Positions 14,508-51,192 of a stretch of DNA of 64,000 nt are shown piece by piece; the first letter of the stretch is position 1, and every line of letters begins with the position of its first letter. A program made the translations under genes and the position numbers. The notes under the pieces were generated by a model, which saw only the letters and a program-made list of their open reading frames with translations, did not search any database and was not told the DNA's origin. The DNA is from Escherichia coli (GTDB lineage Bacteria > Pseudomonadota > Gammaproteobacteria > Enterobacterales > Enterobacteriaceae), in assembly GCF_044324875.1 (NCBI RefSeq), contig NZ_CP172185.1; one strand, written 5' to 3'.

Positions 14508-14583
<76 letters not shown>

Positions 14584-14618
14584 TTGGGTGGTCTGTGCTT
14601 TACAGCACTTTCAAATTT

Positions 14619-14694
<76 letters not shown>

Positions 14695-14851
14695 TTAATC
14701 TTCGTCTTTCGAACCGCTACTGCCTTGGCTGCCTTCACTCACCTTAGTCACTTACTTTTGTAAGCTCCCAAGGATTCGTTCAGTTGCCGCCTTGTCGCAA
14801 TTCGAAATACTGCGATTGGGTGGTCTGTGCTTTGCAGCACTTTTCAAATTT

Positions 14852-14927
<76 letters not shown>

Positions 14928-44081: not shown

Positions 44082-44157
44082 GCCCGGATAGCTCAGTCGG
44101 TAGAGCAGGGGATTGAAAATCCCCGTGTCCTTGGTTCGATTCCGAGTCCGGGCACCA
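44082..44157 (+). tRNA. pheU: tRNA-Phe (GAA)
   Basis: Exact 76-nt GCCCGGATAGCTCAGTCGGTAGAGCAGGGGATTGAAAATCCCCGTGTCCTTGGTTCGATTCCGAGTCCGGGCACCA. Confidence 0.97.
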
Positions 44158-44167
44158 AATTCATATA

Positions 44168-44196
44168 AACGGACCTCCACGGAGGTCCGTTTTTCG
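44168..44196 (+). terminator. pheU terminator hairpin
   Basis: CGGACCTCC-AC-GGAGGTCCG inverted repeat followed by TTTTTCGTTT directly after the tRNA. Confidence 0.7.
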
Positions 44197-44354
44197 TTTC
44201 AGGACGCCACGATTTAAGCGTCCTGCCGCCAAATCAATTCTACCGAACTCAACCAGACTCCCCCCACATCAACCCCATTGTGTGGGTATAATTGCGGGTA
44301 TACCCCAGTTCGACAGAATTTGTACCCTCTTTAACGCATTCAGAAGGCTGAACT

Positions 44355-45617
44355 ATGGCACTGACTGACGCAAAAATCCGGGCTGCAAAGCACACTGACA
44401 AGGCTTATAAACTCACTGACGGGGCTGGCATGTTCCTGCTGGTACATCCTAATGGTTCCCGTTACTGGCGTCTCCGTTATCGCATTCTGGGTAAGGAGAA
44501 AACTCTGGCACTTGGTGTATACCCGGAGGTTTCTCTCTCCGAAGCTCGTACAAAACGGGATGAGGCCCGAAAACTGATTTCGGAGGGGATTGACCCTTGC
44601 GAACAGAAAAGAGCTAAAAAAGTAGTCCCTGATTTACAACTCTCTTTTGAACATATTGCACGACGCTGGCATGCCAGTAATAAACAATGGGCACAATCAC
44701 ACAGCGATAAGGTACTCAAAAGCCTCGAAACACACGTTTTCCCCTTTATCGGCAACCGGAACATCACAACACTCAATACCCCGGACCTGCTTATCCCTGT
44801 TCGTGCTGCAGAAGCTAAACAAATTTATGAAATCGCCAGTCGTCTGCAGCAAAGAATATCTGCTGTAATGCGTTATGCCGTACAGTCTGGCATCATCAGA
44901 TATAATCCTGCTCTGGATATGGCTGGCGCATTGACCTCTGTAAAACGACAGCATCGCCCCGCTCTTGATCTTTCACGTCTGCCTGAACTTCTGTCGCGTA
45001 TTAACAGTTATAAAGGTCAGCCTGTCACCCGGCTTGCTGTTATGCTGAATTTACTGGTTTTTATTCGCTCCAGTGAACTCAGATATGCCCGCTGGGCTGA
45101 AATTGATATTGACAATTCAATGTGGACTATTCCAGCCGAACGCAAACCTCTGCCAGGGGTAAAATTCTCACACCGGGGCTCCAAGATGCGAACACCACAT
45201 CTTGTGCCACTCAGCAAACAGGCTGTAGCCATACTGACAGAACTTCAGACATGGGCTGGTGAAAATGGTCTGATCTTTACGGGAGCACATGACCCGCGTA
45301 AACCAATCAGTGAAAATACCGTAAATAAGGCCCTCAGAGTGATGGGGTATGACACAACCAAGGAAGTCTGTGGCCATGGATTCCGGGCGATGGCGTGCAG
45401 TGCATTGATTGAATCAGGTTTGTGGTCCCGCGATGCTGTGGAACGTCAGATGAGCCATCAGGAGCGTAATGGTGTACGTGCTGCGTATATCCATAAAGCA
45501 GAACATCTGGAAGAACGTCGACTGATGCTACAGTGGTGGGCAGATTTTCTGGATGCGAACAGAGATAAGGGTATCAGCCCGTTTGAATATGCAAAGATTA
45601 ACAATCCATTAAAATAG
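44355..45617 (+). CDS. P4-type tyrosine integrase
   Basis: 420-aa ORF; N-terminus MALTDAKIRAAKHTDKAYKLTDGAGMFLLVHPNGSRYWRLRYR (phage-integrase arm domain); C-terminus with HGFRAMACS and RAAYIH (R..H..R..Y catalytic signature); sits about 200 bp from the tRNA. Confidence 0.9.
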   Translation: MALTDAKIRAAKHTDKAYKLTDGAGMFLLVHPNGSRYWRLRYRILGKEKTLALGVYPEVSLSEARTKRDEARKLISEGIDPCEQKRAKKVVPDLQLSFEHIARRWHASNKQWAQSHSDKVLKSLETHVFPFIGNRNITTLNTPDLLIPVRAAEAKQIYEIASRLQQRISAVMRYAVQSGIIRYNPALDMAGALTSVKRQHRPALDLSRLPELLSRINSYKGQPVTRLAVMLNLLVFIRSSELRYARWAEIDIDNSMWTIPAERKPLPGVKFSHRGSKMRTPHLVPLSKQAVAILTELQTWAGENGLIFTGAHDPRKPISENTVNKALRVMGYDTTKEVCGHGFRAMACSALIESGLWSRDAVERQMSHQERNGVRAAYIHKAEHLEERRLMLQWWADFLDANRDKGISPFEYAKINNPLK

Positions 45618-45620
45618 TAA

Positions 45621-45650
45621 GCAGTCCGGGCTGATTGCCCGGACTGCTTT
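45621..45650 (+). terminator. Hairpin terminator after the integrase gene
   Basis: GCAGTCCGGG-CTGATTG-CCCGGACTGC stem-loop followed by TTTAACTGATTATTTTTC. Confidence 0.55.
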
Positions 45651-46068
45651 AACTGATTATTTTTCTTTGTAAATGATGACGAAGATTGATGTTCTGGCAA
45701 GTTACTCCGGCTTCCATTAAAGTCCCTTCGTCATGTTCTTCAGGCTATTTATGACTGTGATTAGCACCAGGAATATCTGGTTTCCATGAGAGCAGGTAAT
45801 AACCCCCGGTGTTTTCGGCTGTTCTGGTATCCTTGTCCAACGCAGGCAGTCATTATAAACGGTAAAAAATGTATTCACTGTTATGAAATCAATAGTCCTG
45901 ACGTACTGTTGAATGTGCTTGCGTTCTGAACCTTGTACAACCAGTACATTTGATACCGAATTATAAGCAAAACATTGCATCCAACTTTTTCAATATGGAC
46001 AATAGTTGTCCATATGGTGGTTTTATATTCGATAAATCAATGGATTTCATTGAGTCATAGGACTGGTA

Positions 46069-49000
46069 ATGGATGAAAATGCTTTAGGGTTTGCCTCATA
46101 CTGGCGCAACTCGCTTGCGGACGCTGAGTCAGGAAAGGGCAGTTTTGAACGGAAAGACGCCAAAAATTTCACTCACTGGCATGGGATAGCGGCGGGACGT
46201 CTTGACGAAGCGATTGTCAGTAAATTTTTTAAGGGAGAAAAAGACGATGTCGAAACGGTCGATGTCATCTTGCGCCCAAAAGTTTATTTCCGGTTACTGC
46301 AGCATGGTAAGGACCGTTCTGCAGGTGCGCCTGATATTGTTACCCCGATAGTGACGCCAGCCTTGCTAAGCCGTGAGGGTTTTTTATATCCGACGCCAGC
46401 GACCTCCATTCCCAGAGACCTGCTTGAACCTTTGCCAAAAGGAGCATTTTCGATTGGTGAGATTGGGCAGTATGACAAATACAAGACGACCCATACCACG
46501 TTCTCTATCAACTTTGATGACAGCGTTGATAAGACTGCCGAAACGGATGAAGAACGGGAAGAACGATATGCAGCCTTGCAGCAGGAGTGGCGTCAATATC
46601 TGGATGATTCAGAGAGGCTGCTGAAGAACGTTGCCGGCGACTGGATTAAAAATCCTGAGCAATATGAACTCGCTGAGCACGGTTATATTGTTAAAACGGC
46701 GCAATCTGGCGGTGCCAGTTTCCATATCCTTTCTCTTTATGATCACCTGCTTGTTTGCAATAAGGATGTGCCGCTCTTCAATCGATTCGCCTCGCGAGAG
46801 GTTCATGCTGCAGAGTCTTTGCTGGCCCCTGGAGCAAAATTCAGCGACAGGCTTGGACACTCCGGAGATAAGTTTCCGCTGGCAAAGGCTCAGCGCGATG
46901 CCTTAAGCCATTTTCTGGATGCTAAACATGGCGATATCCTTGCTGTTAATGGCCCTCCTGGAACCGGAAAAACCACGCTGGTGCTTTCTATCATCGCCAC
47001 GCAGTGGGCCAGAGCGGCTCTCGAAAAATCTGAGCCTCCGGTTATTATCGCGACTTCAACGAATAACCAGGCTGTAACGAACATTATTGAGGCATTCGGG
47101 AAAGACTTTTCGCAAGGTTCAGGTGCGATGGCCGGGCGATGGTTGCCAGAGCTGAAAAGCTTCGGCGCTTATTTTCCCTCAGGCAGCCGTAAAGCTGAAG
47201 CAGCCAAAAAATATCAAACTGAAGATTTCTTCAACCAGGTTGAGTCAAAAGAGTATGTAGAAGATGCACTGCTGTTTTATCTGGAAAAGGCTAAGGCAGC
47301 CTTTCCTGAAAAAGAGTGTTCATCCCCTGAAAAGGTCATTGAACTCCTGCATGGTCAGTTGGCAGCAAAATCCGAGCAACTGATAAGACTGAACGCAACA
47401 TGGCAAAAGTTAAGCCAGATTCGGGCTGCGCGTGAGCTTATTGCTAATGATATTGAGCAATATCTCAATAATTTAAATAAATTACTTTCCGGACAAGAAC
47501 AAAAAATCACTCTACTGAAGAGTGCTAAAACGGAATGGAAAAAATATCGCGCCGGTGAATCACTGATCTATTCATTATTTTCCTGGCTTCCGGCGGTTCG
47601 CAGTAAGCGACAGTACCAAATACAGCTGTTTCTCGAAGATAAATTAGGTGCGCTGATTGCAGGAAATCAATGGTCTGATCCTGAAACTATCGAACGTAAT
47701 ATTGATGGGCTGCTCAATTCCGCTGAGCGCGAGCAAACAACATACCGGCAGCAGATTGACTCCGCCCATGAAATCATTCTTAAAGAACAGCAGGCGGTTC
47801 AGGAGTGGCAGAGACTGGCTCTTGATTTAGGGTATGAGGGCGACGAGGAACTGAGCTTCTCACAGGCCGATGAACTGGCTGATACGCAGATTCGCTTCCC
47901 TGCATTTTTACTGACGACTCACTACTGGGAAGGTCGTTGGCTGATGGATATGGCCAGCATTGATGATCTGCAGGAAGAGAAGAAGAAAAAAGGCGCTAAA
48001 GGGGTAACCGCCCGTTGGCAACGTCGAATGAAACTCACTCCATGTGTGGTGATGACATGCTATATGCTGCCCGGCAATATGCAGATAAGTGAGCACAAAG
48101 GACAGCGTAAATTCGAGAAAAGTTATTTGTATGATTTTGCCGATTTACTCATTGTCGATGAAGCCGGGCAGGTGCTTCCTGAAGTGGCTGCTGCCTCGTT
48201 TGCATTAGCTAAGAAGGCATTAGTGATTGGCGATACGGAGCAGATCCCGCCAATATGGAGTATTGCTCCTGCGATTGATATCGGTAACATGCTGGCGGAA
48301 AAAATTCTGTCTGGCAGTACGCAAGAAGAGATTACCGAGAAATATACGGCAATCGCAGACCTTGGTAAAAGTGCCGCATCTGGCAGCGTTATGAAAATAG
48401 CGCAGTTTGCTTCGCGCTATCAATATGATCCCGAACTGGCTCGTGGTATGTACCTATATGAACACCGCCGGTGCTACGACAATATTATTGGATACTGTAA
48501 TACGCTCTGCTATCACGGTAAGTTGTTGCCTAAAAGAGGGCGTGAAGAGAGCAATTTAATGCCCGCAATGGGGTATCTCCATATTGATGGTAAAGGAGAG
48601 CTGGCAAGTAGTGGAAGTCGATATAATTTGCTTGAGGCTGAAACGATAGCGGTCTGGTTGGCAGAGAACCAGCAAAATATTGAAGCGCATTACGGTAAAT
48701 CGCTTCATGAAGTTGTCGGTATTGTGACGCCTTTTAGCGCTCAGGTATCCACTATCAAACAGGTGCTGGGCAAACAAGGTATCAGTACAGGCACGAATGA
48801 AAAGTCGCTCACAGTGGGCACCGTGCACTCTCTTCAGGGAGCGGAAAGAGCGATTGTGATATTCTCGCCAGTCTATTCAAAACATGAAGACGGCGGGTTT
48901 ATTGATAGCGATAACAGCATGCTGAATGTTGCAGTCTCCCGTGCGAAGGACAGTTTTCTGGTCTTCGGCGATATGGACCTGTTTGAGGTCCAGCCAGCCT

Positions 49001-49584
49001 CATCGCCACGGGGATTACTGGCAAAATACCTCTTTGAGTCAGAGAAGAATGCGCTCTCTTTTGATTATAAAGAGCGTAAGGATTTAAAAACCGCCGGGAC
49101 CAAAATCTACACACTTCATGGTGTGGAGCAACATGATAATTTCCTGAATCAGACATTTGAAAATACCAGTAAACACATCACGATAGTTTCTCCATGGCTG
49201 ACCTGGCAAAGGCTGGAGCAAACCGGTTTTCTTGATTCCATGATTGCGGCGTGTTCACGTGGAATTAACGTCACGATAGTCACTGACAGAAGCTACAACA
49301 CTGAACATAATGATTTTGAGAAGCGAAAAGAGAAGCAGCAGAACTTTAAAGCGGCGCTGGAGAAACTGAATGCGCTGGGTATTGCTACAAAGCTGGTAAA
49401 CCGTGTTCATAGCAAAATTGTTATTGGTGATGATGGTTTGCTGTGCGTGGGATCGTTCAACTGGTTTAGTGCGACACGGGAAGCGCGATATGAACGATAC
49501 GATACATCAATGGTTTATTGCGGTGATAACCTGAAGGGTGAGATTGAGGCTATTTATAATAGTCTTGAGAGGCGGCAGGTTTAG
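46069..49584 (+). CDS. Upf1-like SF1 helicase fused to a C-terminal PLD-family (single HKD) nuclease domain; candidate anti-phage defence protein with Mokosh type II-like architecture
   Basis: 1171-aa ORF. Walker [10 protein letters not shown] (aa 295-303, nt 46951-46977); Walker [10 protein letters not shown] (nt 48145-48171); helicase motifs [19 protein letters not shown] and [16 protein letters not shown] (nt 48814-48972); C-terminal HSKIVIGDD...GSFNW = H-x-K-x4-D...GSxN (nt 49408-49464). Located beside the island integrase. Confidence 0.8.
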
Positions 49585-49600
49585 AGCAGGAATGGTGAGT

Positions 49601-49637
49601 AGCCATCTTACCGATCGTTTTCGAGCGTAAGATGGCT
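49601..49637. other. 11-bp perfect inverted repeat between the convergent helicase-PLD and sulfatase-family genes
   Basis: AGCCATCTTAC ... GTAAGATGGCT with 15-nt loop; no adjacent T-run, so terminator function is uncertain. Confidence 0.35.
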
Positions 49638-49692
49638 GAATGGAATGGCTATTATTGCACAGTCCTTAATTATAACATTCATACCGACATGA

Positions 49693-51192
49693 TTATCTTC
49701 TGCCCGGAAGAATCAGAGGCTGTGGTTTCAGACTGTCTGCCGGTACATTCCTGTCTCCGTTAAAAACAATAACGGGTTCATTATCTTCGTCTGTCAGCGG
49801 ATTGAATGGCGGTATATTTTCAGTACGAATGCCGGTCAGCCACTGAAAAATACCTGCGAAATGACGGGCACTGATTTTTCTGCTGACGGACTGATGAGAC
49901 GTGATGTCACTGGCGGTAATAATCAGGGGAACGCTGTAGCCTCCTTGTATATGGCCATCATGATGAACAGGATTAGCACTGTCGCTGACCGACAGACCAT
50001 GGTCAGAAAAGTAAAGCATGGCAAAATGACGGGAGTGCCGGCGAAGGATACCATCAAGCTGACCGAGAAAGTTATCCAGTTTACTGATGCTGGCGAGGTA
50101 ACAGGCAATCTTTCGGGGATACTGCTCCAGGTAATGATTCGGCCAGGAGTTAAGTCGGTCACACGGATTCGGATGAGAGCCAATCATGTGCAGGAATATC
50201 ACCTTCGGAGAGGATTTATCCGCCAGTGCACGTTCTGTTTCCTGTAACAACAACATGTCATCCGTTTTACGGGAAGCAAAGCTGCCTTTCTTGAGGAAAA
50301 CGGTATGCTCCGCATCAGAAGCAATAACAGAGATGCGTGTATCATGCTCCCCCAGTTTTCCCTGATTGGATATCCACCATGTGCTGTATCCTGCTTTTGC
50401 TGCCAGCGCCACCACGTTGTTGCCGGAGTCAGGGTTCTGCTCATAGTCATAAATCAGTGTCCGGCTCAGGGAAGGTACGGTACTGGCTGCTGCCGATGTA
50501 TAGCCGTCAATAAATAAACCGGGAGCCGTATTCAGCCATGGTGTGGTTGGCACGGGATAGCCATATACCGACATATAATCCCTGCGCACACTCTCACCAG
50601 TAACGATAACAATCGTGTCATACAACGGTGTTCCCGGCAGGATTTTCCAGTTGTCAGCCCCGTGCTGACTCAGTTGTTTATAACGCTGCATTTCACGCAA
50701 TGTGTCAGTTGTTCCCACAACAATTCCTTTAACCATCCGCAACGGCCAGCTGTTTACAGAGCATAATACGAACAGCAGCAGTGCCAGCCAGTTACGGTGA
50801 CCGCGGTGGTGTGTCCGCCAGAAAATCACCATGAATACCAGAATCGCGGCACTGACCAGAAAATGATAAACAGGAATCATCCCGGTAAACTCTGCAGCCT
50901 CATCAGCCGTGGTCTGCAGCAACGCGACAATAAAACTGTTGTTGATTTTACCGTACGTCATACCCGCAGGCGCATACAGTGCACAACAGAACAGAAATAA
51001 CAGCGTTGTAATGGATGTGAGGGTATTTCTGTGTGCAAGGAGCAGAAGGAGAAACAGAAGCAGCACATTTCCTGTGGCATTCTTCTCAGTGTATCCGCAT
51101 GCAATTGTGGTTATCACAGAAATAACAAAAAAGAATAAAAACAATAAAATCCGGGGTGTGTCGCCCGGACAAAACAGTTTTCTGATATTCAT
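49693..51192 (-). CDS. Sulfatase-family inner-membrane protein (phosphoethanolamine-transferase-like)
   Basis: 499-aa ORF; N-terminal ~130 aa strongly hydrophobic (multiple TM helices), C-terminal domain with VTGESVRRDY and HMIGSHPNP motifs resembling EptA/OpgE/LtaS-type transferases. Confidence 0.7.
   Translation of the reverse strand: MNIRKLFCPGDTPRILLFLFFFVISVITTIACGYTEKNATGNVLLLFLLLLLAHRNTLTSITTLLFLFCCALYAPAGMTYGKINNSFIVALLQTTADEAAEFTGMIPVYHFLVSAAILVFMVIFWRTHHRGHRNWLALLLFVLCSVNSWPLRMVKGIVVGTTDTLREMQRYKQLSQHGADNWKILPGTPLYDTIVIVTGESVRRDYMSVYGYPVPTTPWLNTAPGLFIDGYTSAAASTVPSLSRTLIYDYEQNPDSGNNVVALAAKAGYSTWWISNQGKLGEHDTRISVIASDAEHTVFLKKGSFASRKTDDMLLLQETERALADKSSPKVIFLHMIGSHPNPCDRLNSWPNHYLEQYPRKIACYLASISKLDNFLGQLDGILRRHSRHFAMLYFSDHGLSVSDSANPVHHDGHIQGGYSVPLIITASDITSHQSVSRKISARHFAGIFQWLTGIRTENIPPFNPLTDEDNEPVIVFNGDRNVPADSLKPQPLILPGRR

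What the first reader, a model, noticed from the sequence alone, without database searches (positions are those of the whole stretch)
45993..46015. Perfect 10-bp inverted repeat about 55 bp upstream of the helicase-PLD start codon
ATATGGACAA-TAG-TTGTCCATAT is a perfect palindrome (10-bp arms, 3-bp spacer) in the A/T-rich leader of the candidate defence gene. It has the shape of an operator for a dimeric regulator or a promoter-overlapping control site, which would suggest the gene is kept repressed.
Basis: seen in the sequence. Interest (0 to 1): 0.45.

Follow-up and report, generated by a model that had tools for sequence, protein, structure and literature searches.

The report
Palindrome on Mokosh gene promoter
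The perfect palindrome is real, but only its left half is conserved, as part of what looks like the promoter of a known anti-phage gene (Mokosh type II, mkoC); the mirror symmetry is a local, variable feature of some E. coli strains, so there is no good evidence for a repressor-binding site.

Summary
ATATGGACAA-TAG-TTGTCCATAT is at 45993-46015 as described, 53 nt before the ATG of a 1171-aa gene. That gene is MkoC (Mokosh type II). It is 97% identical over 399 aa to the experimentally validated E. coli system SG150.

The gene sits in a tRNA-Phe/P4-type integrase islet. A perfect 10-bp inverted repeat is not rare: 0.68 are expected per shuffled 64-kb window.

Thirteen Enterobacterales orthologue loci were found through the protein alone (62-97% aa identity). 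All keep TGGACAAT (left arm) and a TTGC placed 16-17 nt upstream of the GACAAT inside TGGACAAT. The right arm drifts, giving 4-8 of 10 complementary pairs.

Within E. coli the symmetry is polymorphic (10/10, 9/10, 8/10, 6/10). At most 124 of 743 complete genomes with this promoter type carry the exact allele. The validated SG150 construct carried the 6/10 allele with its native upstream DNA.

No regulator gene travels with mkoC in 25 contexts, and no second copy of the site was found.

Best reading: the palindrome lies on a conserved sigma-70-type core promoter. The left arm holds the -10 GACAAT and the right arm covers the discriminator and start site. The dyad itself is incidental. The start site is not mapped, so the operator idea is unsupported rather than excluded. 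Interest is low.

The parts
45993..46015 (.). Perfect inverted repeat ATATGGACAA-TAG-TTGTCCATAT (the finding).
   Evidence: As a single strand it folds at -8.1 kcal/mol as DNA (z -5.7) and -11.2 kcal/mol as RNA.
45996..46003 (+). TGGACAAT, an invariant 8-mer inside the left arm and the first spacer base. It contains the putative -10 hexamer GACAAT (45998-46003), which has the A at position 2 and the T at position 6.
   Evidence: Invariant in all 13 Enterobacterales loci found by protein similarity alone. Absent from the Rhodobacteraceae homologues at 38-41% identity.
45975..45980 (+). Putative -35 hexamer TTGCAT. TTGC is invariant in orthologues, where the hexamer is mostly TTGCGA.
   Evidence: The spacing to GACAAT is 17 nt here and 16 nt in all other orthologues, while the spacer sequence varies freely. 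Two viral-contig promoters found without requiring TTGC also have it.
45962..45974 (+). A-rich tract just upstream of the -35 (AACAAA in most orthologues). It is possibly UP-element-like.
   Evidence: Partly conserved columns. Its function is inferred only.
46006..46015 (+). Right arm TTGTCCATAT. It is the poorly conserved half. Under the P1 model it covers the discriminator and the probable start region (YYAT at 46010-46013).
   Evidence: The orthologue consensus is TTA(A/T)(C/T)CAT plus two variable bases. E. coli alleles are CTGTCCATAC, TTGTCCATAC, CTGTCCATAT and TTGTCCATTC.
46022..46029 (+). Conserved leader element TTTATATT. It includes the alternative -10 candidate TATATT at 46024-46029.
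   Evidence: T, A and A are invariant in 31 leaders. The distance to TGGACA is 20 or 22 nt among orthologues, too long for a -35/-10 pair.
46034..46041 (+). Conserved leader element AAATCAAT, function unknown.
   Evidence: Nearly invariant. No consensus RNA structure was found.
46059..46062 (+). Shine-Dalgarno AGGA, 6 nt before the ATG.
   Evidence: Read from the sequence. GGGA or GGA is conserved at this place in orthologues.
46069..49584 (+). mkoC: Mokosh type II helicase-PLD defence gene, 1171 aa.
   Evidence: PADLOC MkoC model E=0, 1694 bits, residues 1-1169 matched to positions 1-1135 of 1136. It is 97% identical over 399 aa to validated SG150. Homologues carry helicase and PLD Pfam domains.
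45619..45649 (.). Strong G+C-rich hairpin directly after the integrase stop codon; it is the likely int terminator.
   Evidence: 13-bp stem with 9 G-C pairs. It makes a second terminator at the palindrome unnecessary.
44355..45617 (+). P4-type tyrosine integrase next to tRNA-Phe (44082-44157). Together with mkoC it forms the islet.

Best explanation
The palindrome lies on the core promoter of mkoC, a known single-gene anti-phage system (Mokosh type II).

The functional, conserved unit is a bipartite sigma-70-type promoter. It has an A-rich tract, a -35 TTGCAT (45975-45980), a 17-nt spacer and a -10 GACAAT (45998-46003, inside the left arm). Transcription probably starts in the YYAT at 46010-46013, inside the right arm. 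This gives a conserved 5' leader of about 58 nt.

The perfect mirror symmetry is not itself a functional element. It is a lineage-specific state of a drifting quasi-palindrome. In one branch of the tRNA-Phe-island allele, the right arm happens to complement the constrained left arm.

Shown here: the conservation pattern, the polymorphism, the absence of a linked regulator, and the identity of the gene.

Inferred: that TTGC and GACAAT are the -35 and -10, where transcription starts, and that the symmetry is neutral.
For: 1. Thirteen Enterobacterales orthologue loci were found through the protein only (62-97% aa identity). All have TGGACAAT, and all have TTGC placed 16-17 nt upstream of GACAAT with a freely varying spacer. 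DNA upstream of TTGC is unalignable.

2. Conservation is asymmetric. On a 0-9 scale the left-arm columns score 3,6,5,9,9,9,9,9,9,9 and the right-arm columns 7,7,4,2,5,7,9,9,3,2. There are 22 distinct arm combinations with 4-10 complementary pairs out of 10.

3. On the unbiased alignment the covariation measures do not exceed the shuffles. Percent paired is reached by 51 of 500 shuffles and the covariation score by 110 of 500.

4. Within E. coli, 743 complete genomes carry this promoter type. At most 124 have the exact allele, 294 have 1-2 mismatches and 325 have 3 mismatches in the 56-nt probe. Alleles with 10, 9 and 8 pairs were read directly. The tRNA-Leu-island and Citrobacter allele has 6 of 10.

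5. Variable sites in the palindrome (3 of 23) are about as dense as in the flanks (44 of 500).

6. SG150, the verified Mokosh type II construct, carried 301 bp of native upstream DNA with ACGTGGACAATAGTTATCCATAC (6/10). It protected E. coli under its native promoter.

7. No gene family other than mkoC, apart from neighbouring defence genes (HNH and restriction/modification families), is shared across 25 genomic contexts. The site occurs once per locus and once in the window.

8. All usable hits of the promoter-plus-leader pattern in metagenomes (43 unique modules) lie at mkoC or at its remnant.
Against: - No transcription start has been mapped.
- By consensus the promoter is weak: TTGCAT matches 3 of 6 and GACAAT 4 of 6. 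The consensus scan did not flag it.
- The probable start purine (A 46012) is 9 nt after the hexamer, at the long end of the usual range.
- An 8-mer invariant down to 62% aa identity is more than a -10 hexamer strictly needs.
- In-register complementarity across orthologues exceeds slid registers: 62.5% Watson-Crick against 19-36%, and 73% with G-U against 31-51%.
- Five of the six conserved right-arm columns complement the left arm, so a weak ancestral interrupted dyad (TGGnnAA-N3-TTnnCCA) cannot be excluded.
- The conserved leader elements TTTATAT and AAATCAAT are not explained by this model.
- Most of the extra orthologue promoters were collected with a pattern that required TGGACAAT and TTGC. 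They cannot count as evidence for the invariance of those elements.
Confidence: 0.55

Rival explanations
1. True operator. A dimeric DNA-binding protein binds the dyad and occludes the promoter. The protein could be a core-genome factor, a phage factor, or MkoC itself. The site could be a recently perfected one in the tRNA-Phe-island lineage, or a conserved interrupted dyad TGGnnAA-N3-TTnnCCA.
For: - Perfect 10-bp arms sit directly on the conserved promoter core.
- All tRNA-Phe-island alleles seen keep at least 8 of the 10 pairs; the commonest keeps an 8-bp-arm core TATGGACA/TGTCCATA.
- In-register complementarity across orthologues is higher than in slid registers.
- The two outer pairs show both A-T/T-A and T-A/C-G types.
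- The Tatumella sp. allele has 8-bp outer arms CATCATGG/CCATGATG.
Against: - The right half-site is conserved as TTA(A/T)(C/T)CAT, not as the mirror TTGTCCA. Pairs 7 and 8 are unpaired in 8 and 10 of 12 sequences.
- Covariation is not beyond the shuffles.
- The reference structure was taken from the window, which inflates in-register counts.
- Partial dyads of 6/10 are expected many times over by chance in a 60-bp region (binomial estimate, inference).
- The symmetry is polymorphic within the species, and the perfect allele is a minority.
- No linked regulator was found in 25 contexts.
- No second site was found.
- The 6/10 allele is expressed well enough to defend.
Confidence: 0.15
2. Different promoter geometry. 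The real -10 is TATATT (46024-46029), with a start near 46036. TGGACAAT, or the palindrome, is then a -35-region or activator site rather than the -10.
For: - TATATT matches TATAAT at 5 of 6.
- TA.A is invariant in 31 leaders.
- TGGACA matches the -35 consensus at 5 of 6.
- The weight-matrix scan often scores candidates that use TGGACA as the -35.
Against: - The distance from TGGACA to TATATT is 22 nt here and 20 or 22 nt in orthologues. That is too long and too variable for a sigma-70 pair or for a phase-dependent activator.
- In most orthologues the hexamer is TATATC, lacking the final T.
- This model leaves the invariant TTGC at fixed spacing unexplained.
Confidence: 0.15
3. RNA-level control. 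The right arm is the 5' end of the mRNA, and its CCAU pairs with the AUGG of the start codon. This closes a long leader hairpin that buries the ribosome-binding site.
For: - The minimum-energy fold of 46010-46090 pairs CCAU with AUGG and UUUU with AGGA, at -19.5 kcal/mol.
- YYAU can pair with AUGG, allowing G-U, in all 25 leaders where those columns were aligned.
Against: - The z-score is only -2.07.
- RNAalifold finds no consensus pair in 31 leaders.
- The covariation score is no better than shuffled or slid controls.
- AUGG is invariant for coding reasons, so it cannot covary.
- The model needs a start exactly at 46010.
Confidence: 0.05
4. Intrinsic terminator or insulator hairpin that stops read-through from the integrase gene.
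For: The simple scan flags it as terminator-like, with 10 pairs followed by GGTGGTTTTA.
Against: - Only 3 G-C pairs are present.
- The T-run starts 5 nt after the stem.
- The integrase already has a 13-bp, 9-G-C hairpin at 45619-45649.
- Hairpin energy falls to between -1 and -6 kcal/mol in most orthologues.
- The element travels with mkoC, not with int.
Confidence: 0.03

Closest known systems
Mokosh type II system SG150 (MkoC of E. coli 5-366-08_S1_C1; Millman et al. 2022, bioRxiv 10.1101/2022.05.11.491447)
   Same: - It is the same gene: 97% identity over the 399 aa printed in the supplement.
- It has the same start, the same leader, and the same TTGC...TGGACAAT module in the cloned native upstream DNA.
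   Different: SG150 has the tRNA-Leu-island allele ACGTGGACAATAGTTATCCATAC (6 of 10 pairs), a 16-nt spacer and different DNA further upstream. The perfect palindrome has not been tested experimentally.
Ordinary sigma-70 promoter (-35 TTGACA, 17 +/- 1 nt, -10 TATAAT)
   Same: - Two short blocks are conserved at fixed 16-17 nt spacing, with a variable spacer between them.
- An A-rich tract lies upstream.
- A pyrimidine-purine step lies downstream.
   Different: - The match to consensus is weak: 7 of 12 here and 8 of 12 in most orthologues.
- The conserved block is 8 nt rather than 6.
- The start site is unmapped.
Palindromic operators of defence-system regulators, such as WYL-domain BrxR/CapW-type repressors upstream of BREX or CBASS (recalled from the literature, not checked here)
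   Same: An inverted repeat overlaps the promoter of an anti-phage gene.
   Different: Those systems encode the regulator next to the operator, and both half-sites are kept among relatives. Here there is no adjacent regulator and the second half-site is not kept.
Quasi-palindrome 'correction' by template switching during replication (Ripley; Lovett laboratory; recalled, not checked here)
   Same: An imperfect inverted repeat (6/10 in the outgroup allele) appears as 8/10, 9/10 and 10/10 versions in close relatives. The adjacent CG-to-TA change in the left arm matches the right arm.
   Different: - Changes lie in both arms.
- Some changes go away from symmetry: T to C at 46006 and A to T at 46014.
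- Polymorphism density is not raised.
- Because the window was picked for being perfect, every difference from it must break a pair. The direction of change is therefore not evidence.

Membership tests
Sigma-70-type promoter | -10 hexamer with A at position 2 and T at position 6 | tested here: met
   GACAAT at 45998-46003 is invariant in 13 protein-ascertained orthologue loci.
Sigma-70-type promoter | -35 element (TTGnnn) 16-18 nt upstream, with spacing conserved while the spacer sequence varies | tested here: met
   TTGC is invariant. The spacer is 17 nt here and 16 nt elsewhere, and its sequence is not conserved.
Sigma-70-type promoter | Good overall match to consensus, or top score among local candidates | tested here: inconclusive
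   Not flagged by the consensus scan. It ranks 2nd in the window and 2nd-5th in 57 of 71 modules in a rough weight-matrix scan. The top candidates lack the essential A at position 2.
Sigma-70-type promoter | Mapped transcription start and activity | not testable with these tools
   Only indirect evidence exists. The 301 bp of native upstream DNA of the 6/10 allele sufficed for phage defence in E. coli.
Palindromic operator of a dimeric repressor | Dyad symmetry at the site | tested here: met
   10 of 10 pairs in the window.
Palindromic operator of a dimeric repressor | Both half-sites conserved or covarying among orthologous promoters | tested here: not met
   The right arm diverges (4-8 of 10 pairs). 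Covariation is not above the shuffles. The site is polymorphic within E. coli.
Palindromic operator of a dimeric repressor | Cognate regulator gene linked to the site | tested here: not met
   No shared small gene family flanks mkoC in 25 contexts. In the window mkoC follows the integrase directly. A distant or core-genome regulator cannot be excluded.
Palindromic operator of a dimeric repressor | Further copies of the site (regulon or tandem operators) | tested here: not met
   One copy in the window at up to 3 mismatches. One per locus in 146 loci. Viral-contig hits are at chance level. Whole host genomes were not scanned for the motif.
Palindromic operator of a dimeric repressor | Protein binding and effect on expression | not testable with these tools
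   Needs EMSA or footprinting and reporter fusions.
Rho-independent terminator | G+C-rich stem immediately followed by a U-tract | tested here: not met
   3 G-C pairs of 10, and the T-run begins 5 nt after the stem.
Mokosh type II (MkoC), for the gene served by the site | Single protein with an N-terminal Upf1-like (COG1112) helicase and a C-terminal PLD nuclease, matching the MkoC model end to end | tested here: met
   PADLOC MkoC E=0 with residues 1-1169 matched. Close homologues carry PF13086/PF13087 and PF13091. The HSK motif is present in the translation.
Mokosh type II (MkoC), for the gene served by the site | Demonstrated anti-phage activity | not tested
   Shown for the 97%-identical SG150 protein by Millman et al., not for this allele.
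Known RNA family (Rfam) | Match reaching the family's gathering score | tested here: not met
   The best hits in 45600-46200 score 11-19 bits against thresholds of 36-80.

The most novel reading that the evidence does not exclude
The dyad is a real control site. One possibility is a conserved interrupted operator (TGGnnAA-N3-TTnnCCA) laid over the -10 and start region of mkoC promoters across Enterobacterales. The other is an operator newly perfected in the E. coli tRNA-Phe-island lineage. Through it, an unlinked host or phage protein would hold Mokosh type II expression down until infection. The natural 6/10 to 10/10 alleles would then be a ready-made series of repression strengths.
Probability: 0.1. 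Interest if true: 0.45.

Novelty: new member of a known kind. Interest (0 to 1): 0.15.

Why it matters
As it stands, little. It is the probable promoter of an already validated defence gene, carrying an incidental palindrome.

The useful by-product is a roughly 100-bp promoter-plus-leader footprint shared by mkoC genes down to 62% protein identity. This gives concrete targets for studying how Mokosh type II expression is set, about which I found nothing published: TTGC, TGGACAAT, TTTATAT and AAATCAAT.

If the dyad did bind a protein, the natural allele series in E. coli would allow a quick test of whether single-gene defence systems without a linked regulator are nevertheless repressed.

Tried and rejected
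- **Direction of change.** The four differences between the window allele and the tRNA-Leu-island allele all 'perfect' the palindrome. I rejected this as evidence of selection. The window was chosen because it is perfect, so any difference must break a pair.
- **Hypervariable right arm.** Five close haplotypes differed only at 46006, 46014 and 46015. This was an artefact of how I picked them. Across 23 haplotypes, the density of variable sites in the palindrome equals that of the flanks.
- **Terminator.** Rejected.
- **Conserved RNA structure in the leader or at the palindrome.** Not supported. No Rfam family matched.
- **Divergent small regulator gene.** The 87-aa antisense ORF at 45717-45980 is unannotated and has no PADLOC hit. 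It shows 12 amino-acid changes for 15 nucleotide changes against CFT073. It is absent from the tRNA-Leu-island context.
- **H-NS nucleation site.** TCGATAAATC at 46029-46038 matches 9 of 10 of the motif tCGATAAATT (PMC2094087). Four such matches occur in the window against 3.9 expected.
- **Phage-borne copy of the operator.** There were 17 hits in viral contigs, about the number expected by chance. One shares 22 nt but lies inside an unrelated ORF.
- **Resemblances recalled from memory only.** These were a RutR box (TTGACCAnnTGGTCAA against TTGTCCATATGGTGGT, 10 of 14), a DnaA box (TTATCCACA against TTATCCATA in the tRNA-Leu-island allele), and sigma-54, sigma-32 and sigma-28 promoters. None is kept in orthologues and none was pursued.
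- **Mini-ORF in the leader.** ATGGATTTCATTGAGTCATAG at 46040-46060 is not conserved.

Full report
**Observation.** Window 45993-46015 reads ATATGGACAA-TAG-TTGTCCATAT, a perfect inverted repeat with 10-bp arms and a 3-nt spacer. It ends 53 nt before the ATG at 46069 of an 1171-codon ORF, which is preceded by AGGA at 46059-46062.

**Context.**
- The window is E. coli chromosome at a tRNA-Phe gene (44082-44157), with dsbD and dicD on one side.
- After the tRNA come a P4-type tyrosine integrase (44355-45617), a strong hairpin at 45619-45649, 350 nt of non-coding DNA, the palindrome, and the large gene.
- That gene matches the PADLOC MkoC model end to end (E=0, 1694 bits). Its close homologues carry helicase (PF13086/PF13087) and PLD (PF13091) domains.
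- Millman et al. 2022 define Mokosh type II as exactly such a single helicase-PLD gene.
- Their verified construct SG150, from E. coli 5-366-08_S1_C1, is printed in their supplement. Its protein is 97% identical to the window's over the 399 residues shown.
- The 'candidate defence gene' is therefore a known, validated defence gene.

**Is the palindrome more than chance?**
- Dinucleotide shuffles of the window give 0.68 perfect 10-bp-arm repeats with spacers 0-10, and 49% of shuffles have at least one.
- The window holds five. The other four are G+C-rich hairpins at gene ends.
- Only when restricted after the fact to this leader is it unlikely (P about 0.003).
- The decision therefore rests on comparison with relatives.

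**Variation within E. coli.**
- A 503-nt probe finds the region in 931 of 5,426 complete genomes.
- Some genomes match only from about 45968 onward. There the same gene and leader sit in a different island, at tRNA-Leu, among HNH, restriction and TIR genes. The palindrome therefore travels with mkoC, not with the integrase.
- Reading representative alleles gives this series:

| Allele | Right arm | Complementary pairs |
|---|---|---|
| Window, strain 26561, E. albertii | TTGTCCATAT | 10/10 |
| UM146 | TTGTCCATAC | 9/10 |
| L094-type (metagenome contigs) | CTGTCCATAT | 9/10 |
| CFT073, O104:H4 | CTGTCCATAC | 8/10 |
| L067 (metagenome contig) | TTGTCCATTC | 8/10 |
| tRNA-Leu-island and Citrobacter form (ACGTGGACAA-TAG-TTATCCATAC) | TTATCCATAC | 6/10 |

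- With a 56-nt probe, 743 genomes have the tRNA-Phe-island type. Of these, 124 are exact, 294 have one or two mismatches and 325 have three. The perfect form is a minority allele.
- Variable sites are no denser or sparser in the palindrome (3 of 23) than in 500 nt around it (44 of 500). That sample could not show variation at 45975-46003, which served as the anchor.

**Variation among orthologues.**
- A protein-based scan of one genome per species returned 15 loci.
- The 13 Enterobacterales loci (62-97% aa identity) all keep TGGACAAT, which is seven bases of the left arm plus the first spacer base. All have TTGC placed 16 nt upstream of GACAAT (17 nt in the tRNA-Phe-island type), with a spacer that varies freely. 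Upstream of TTGC nothing aligns.
- The three Rhodobacteraceae loci (38-41% identity) have none of this.
- The right arm is TTA(A/T)(C/T)CAT plus two variable bases. Per-column conservation on a 0-9 scale is 3,6,5,9,9,9,9,9,9,9 for the left arm and 7,7,4,2,5,7,9,9,3,2 for the right.
- A viral-contig scan that did not require TTGC found two more true promoters, both with TTGCGA.
- A metagenome scan for the whole module found 96 stretches, 80 of which were retrieved. They gave 43 unique modules, all at mkoC or at its remnant.
- Over all loci there are 22 arm combinations with 4 to 10 complementary pairs.
- The metagenome set was collected with TGGACAAT and TTGC fixed. It informs only about the right arm and the outer left-arm bases.

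**What the footprint looks like.**
- The layout is that of a sigma-70 promoter. It has two short blocks at fixed 16-17 nt spacing with a free spacer, a -10-like hexamer with the key A and T (GACAAT), a -35-like TTG, an A-rich tract just upstream (AACAAA), and a conserved pyrimidine-pyrimidine-A-T 7-10 nt after the hexamer.
- On this model (P1) the palindrome spans about -17 to +6. The left arm is constrained because it is the -10 region. The right arm is the discriminator and start region.
- This is inference. By consensus the promoter is weak (7 of 12 here), and the scan tool did not flag it.
- A rough weight-matrix scan ranks it 2nd here and 2nd-5th in 57 of 71 modules. The top candidate (TTTATA-17-TTTCAT) lacks the essential A of the -10 (matrix values from memory).
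- The alternative -10, TATATT at 46024-46029, is well conserved as TA.A. It lies 22 nt from TGGACA here and 20 or 22 nt in others, and usually ends in C. It fits neither a -35/-10 pair nor a phase-dependent activator site.

**Direct tests of the dyad.**
- On the unbiased 12-sequence alignment, 62.5% of cells are Watson-Crick complementary in register, against 19-36% when slid. With G-U allowed the figures are 73% against 31-51%.
- Two points weaken this. The structure was taken from one of the sequences. The shuffle control is reached in 51 of 500 shuffles (percent paired) and 110 of 500 (covariation score).
- Pairs 7 and 8 (A-T and C-G in the window) are unpaired in 8 and 10 of the 12 sequences. 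The conserved base at right-arm position 3 is A, not the G that symmetry requires.
- Five of the six conserved right-arm columns do complement the left arm. I estimate this at roughly P=0.005 for one register and about 0.05 after allowing for alternative registers (inference). A weak ancestral interrupted dyad cannot be excluded.
- Hairpin energies as RNA run from -11.2 kcal/mol (window) to -1.1 kcal/mol.

**Search for a partner.**
- No small gene family is shared beside mkoC across 25 contexts. The only recurrent neighbours are HNH, restriction and type I R-M genes.
- The 87-aa antisense ORF next to the palindrome is unannotated and evolves like non-coding DNA.
- The palindrome has no second copy in the window at up to 3 mismatches. 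It occurs once per locus in 146 loci.
- Seventeen viral-contig matches to ATGGACAA-N3-TTGTCCAT are about the chance number. The one with 22 identical nucleotides lies inside an unrelated ORF.

**Experimental anchor.** Millman et al. cloned each system with its intergenic DNA 'to include the native promoters'. SG150 includes 301 nt upstream of the ATG with the 6/10 allele and is marked verified. The module therefore drives enough MkoC for defence in a laboratory E. coli without a perfect dyad. The gene is not silent in that form. The perfect allele remains untested.

**Other readings.**
- A terminator is unlikely. The stem has 3 G-C pairs, the T-run is displaced by 5 nt, int has its own hairpin, and the structure is not conserved.
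- A leader hairpin that pairs CCAU (right arm) with the AUGG of the start codon and buries the ribosome-binding site is the minimum-energy fold (-19.5 kcal/mol, z -2.07). RNAalifold finds no consensus structure in 31 leaders, and the pair counts show no covariation beyond controls.
- No Rfam family matches.
- A 9/10 match to the H-NS motif in the leader is at chance frequency.

**Verdict.** Several tests that an operator should pass are failed: conservation of both halves, a linked regulator, and further sites. I put 0.55 on an 'incidental, lineage-specific palindrome laid over a conserved sigma-70-type promoter of mkoC' and 0.15 on a real operator. The rest goes to other geometries. The feature is ordinary. 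The only new information is the conserved promoter-leader footprint of Mokosh type II genes in Enterobacterales.

Noticed in passing
window 46016-46068 (leader), with L005-L018 and the metagenome loci: The 5' leader of mkoC is conserved almost as well as the promoter, down to 62% protein identity: TTTATAT(C/T), (G)AAATCAAT, and a GGGA-type ribosome-binding site. No consensus RNA structure was found and no Rfam family matched, so its function is unexplained.
   Followed up: partly
L007, L008, L010, L015-L018 and many metagenome loci, between TTGC and TGGACAAT: In the orthologue group at 64-68% identity, the promoter spacer holds an inverted repeat TGCGA-N6-TCGCA with a variable centre. It is absent from the window's allele. 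It could be a different control site in those lineages.
   Followed up: no
L076, L103 and L119 (metagenome contigs): The mkoC promoter and leader are kept up to ...GAAGCTA. Then mkoC is replaced by a 262-aa ORF that looks like an MBL-fold hydrolase, with its own ribosome-binding site, and the downstream neighbour is the same as in L006. This is a cargo swap with its breakpoint at the mkoC ribosome-binding site.
   Followed up: partly
L154 859-880 (viral contig IMGVR_UViG_3300029237_000155): A 22-nt identity to the palindrome (ATATGGACAATAGTTGTCCATA) lies inside a 320-aa ORF that resembles AbiH-type proteins. The flanks show no similarity. I estimate about 0.004 such matches are expected among the 17 viral hits, so it is odd but has no visible link.
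   Followed up: partly
window 44082-49700: The islet at tRNA-Phe consists only of the integrase and mkoC. No repeat of 14 nt or more of the tRNA 3' end was found anywhere in the window, so there is no obvious attR. The 350 nt after int (45618 to about 45970) recur with other cargo at tRNA-Leu islands.
   Followed up: partly
window 45717-45980, minus strand: An 87-aa ORF runs away from the palindrome. It is intact in all alleles examined but shows 12 amino-acid changes for 15 nucleotide changes against CFT073. It is not annotated in RefSeq and is probably spurious.
   Followed up: yes
window 46029-46038: TCGATAAATC matches the published H-NS high-affinity motif tCGATAAATT at 9 of 10 positions. 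Such matches occur at chance frequency in the window (4 found, 3.9 expected).
   Followed up: yes
window 46006 and 46015 across E. coli alleles: All four combinations of T/C at these two sites, 9 nt apart, exist. The C at 46006 appears on two different haplotype backgrounds, which suggests recurrent mutation or very short conversion tracts.
   Followed up: partly
L021 (CFT073) and L022 (O104:H4): RefSeq annotates mkoC as truncated in CFT073 and as frameshifted in an O104:H4 genome. The gene is therefore decaying in some lineages that keep the promoter.
   Followed up: no
window 14508-14927: Three tandem tRNA-Gly(GCC) genes lie on the minus strand. They are unrelated to the finding.
   Followed up: no
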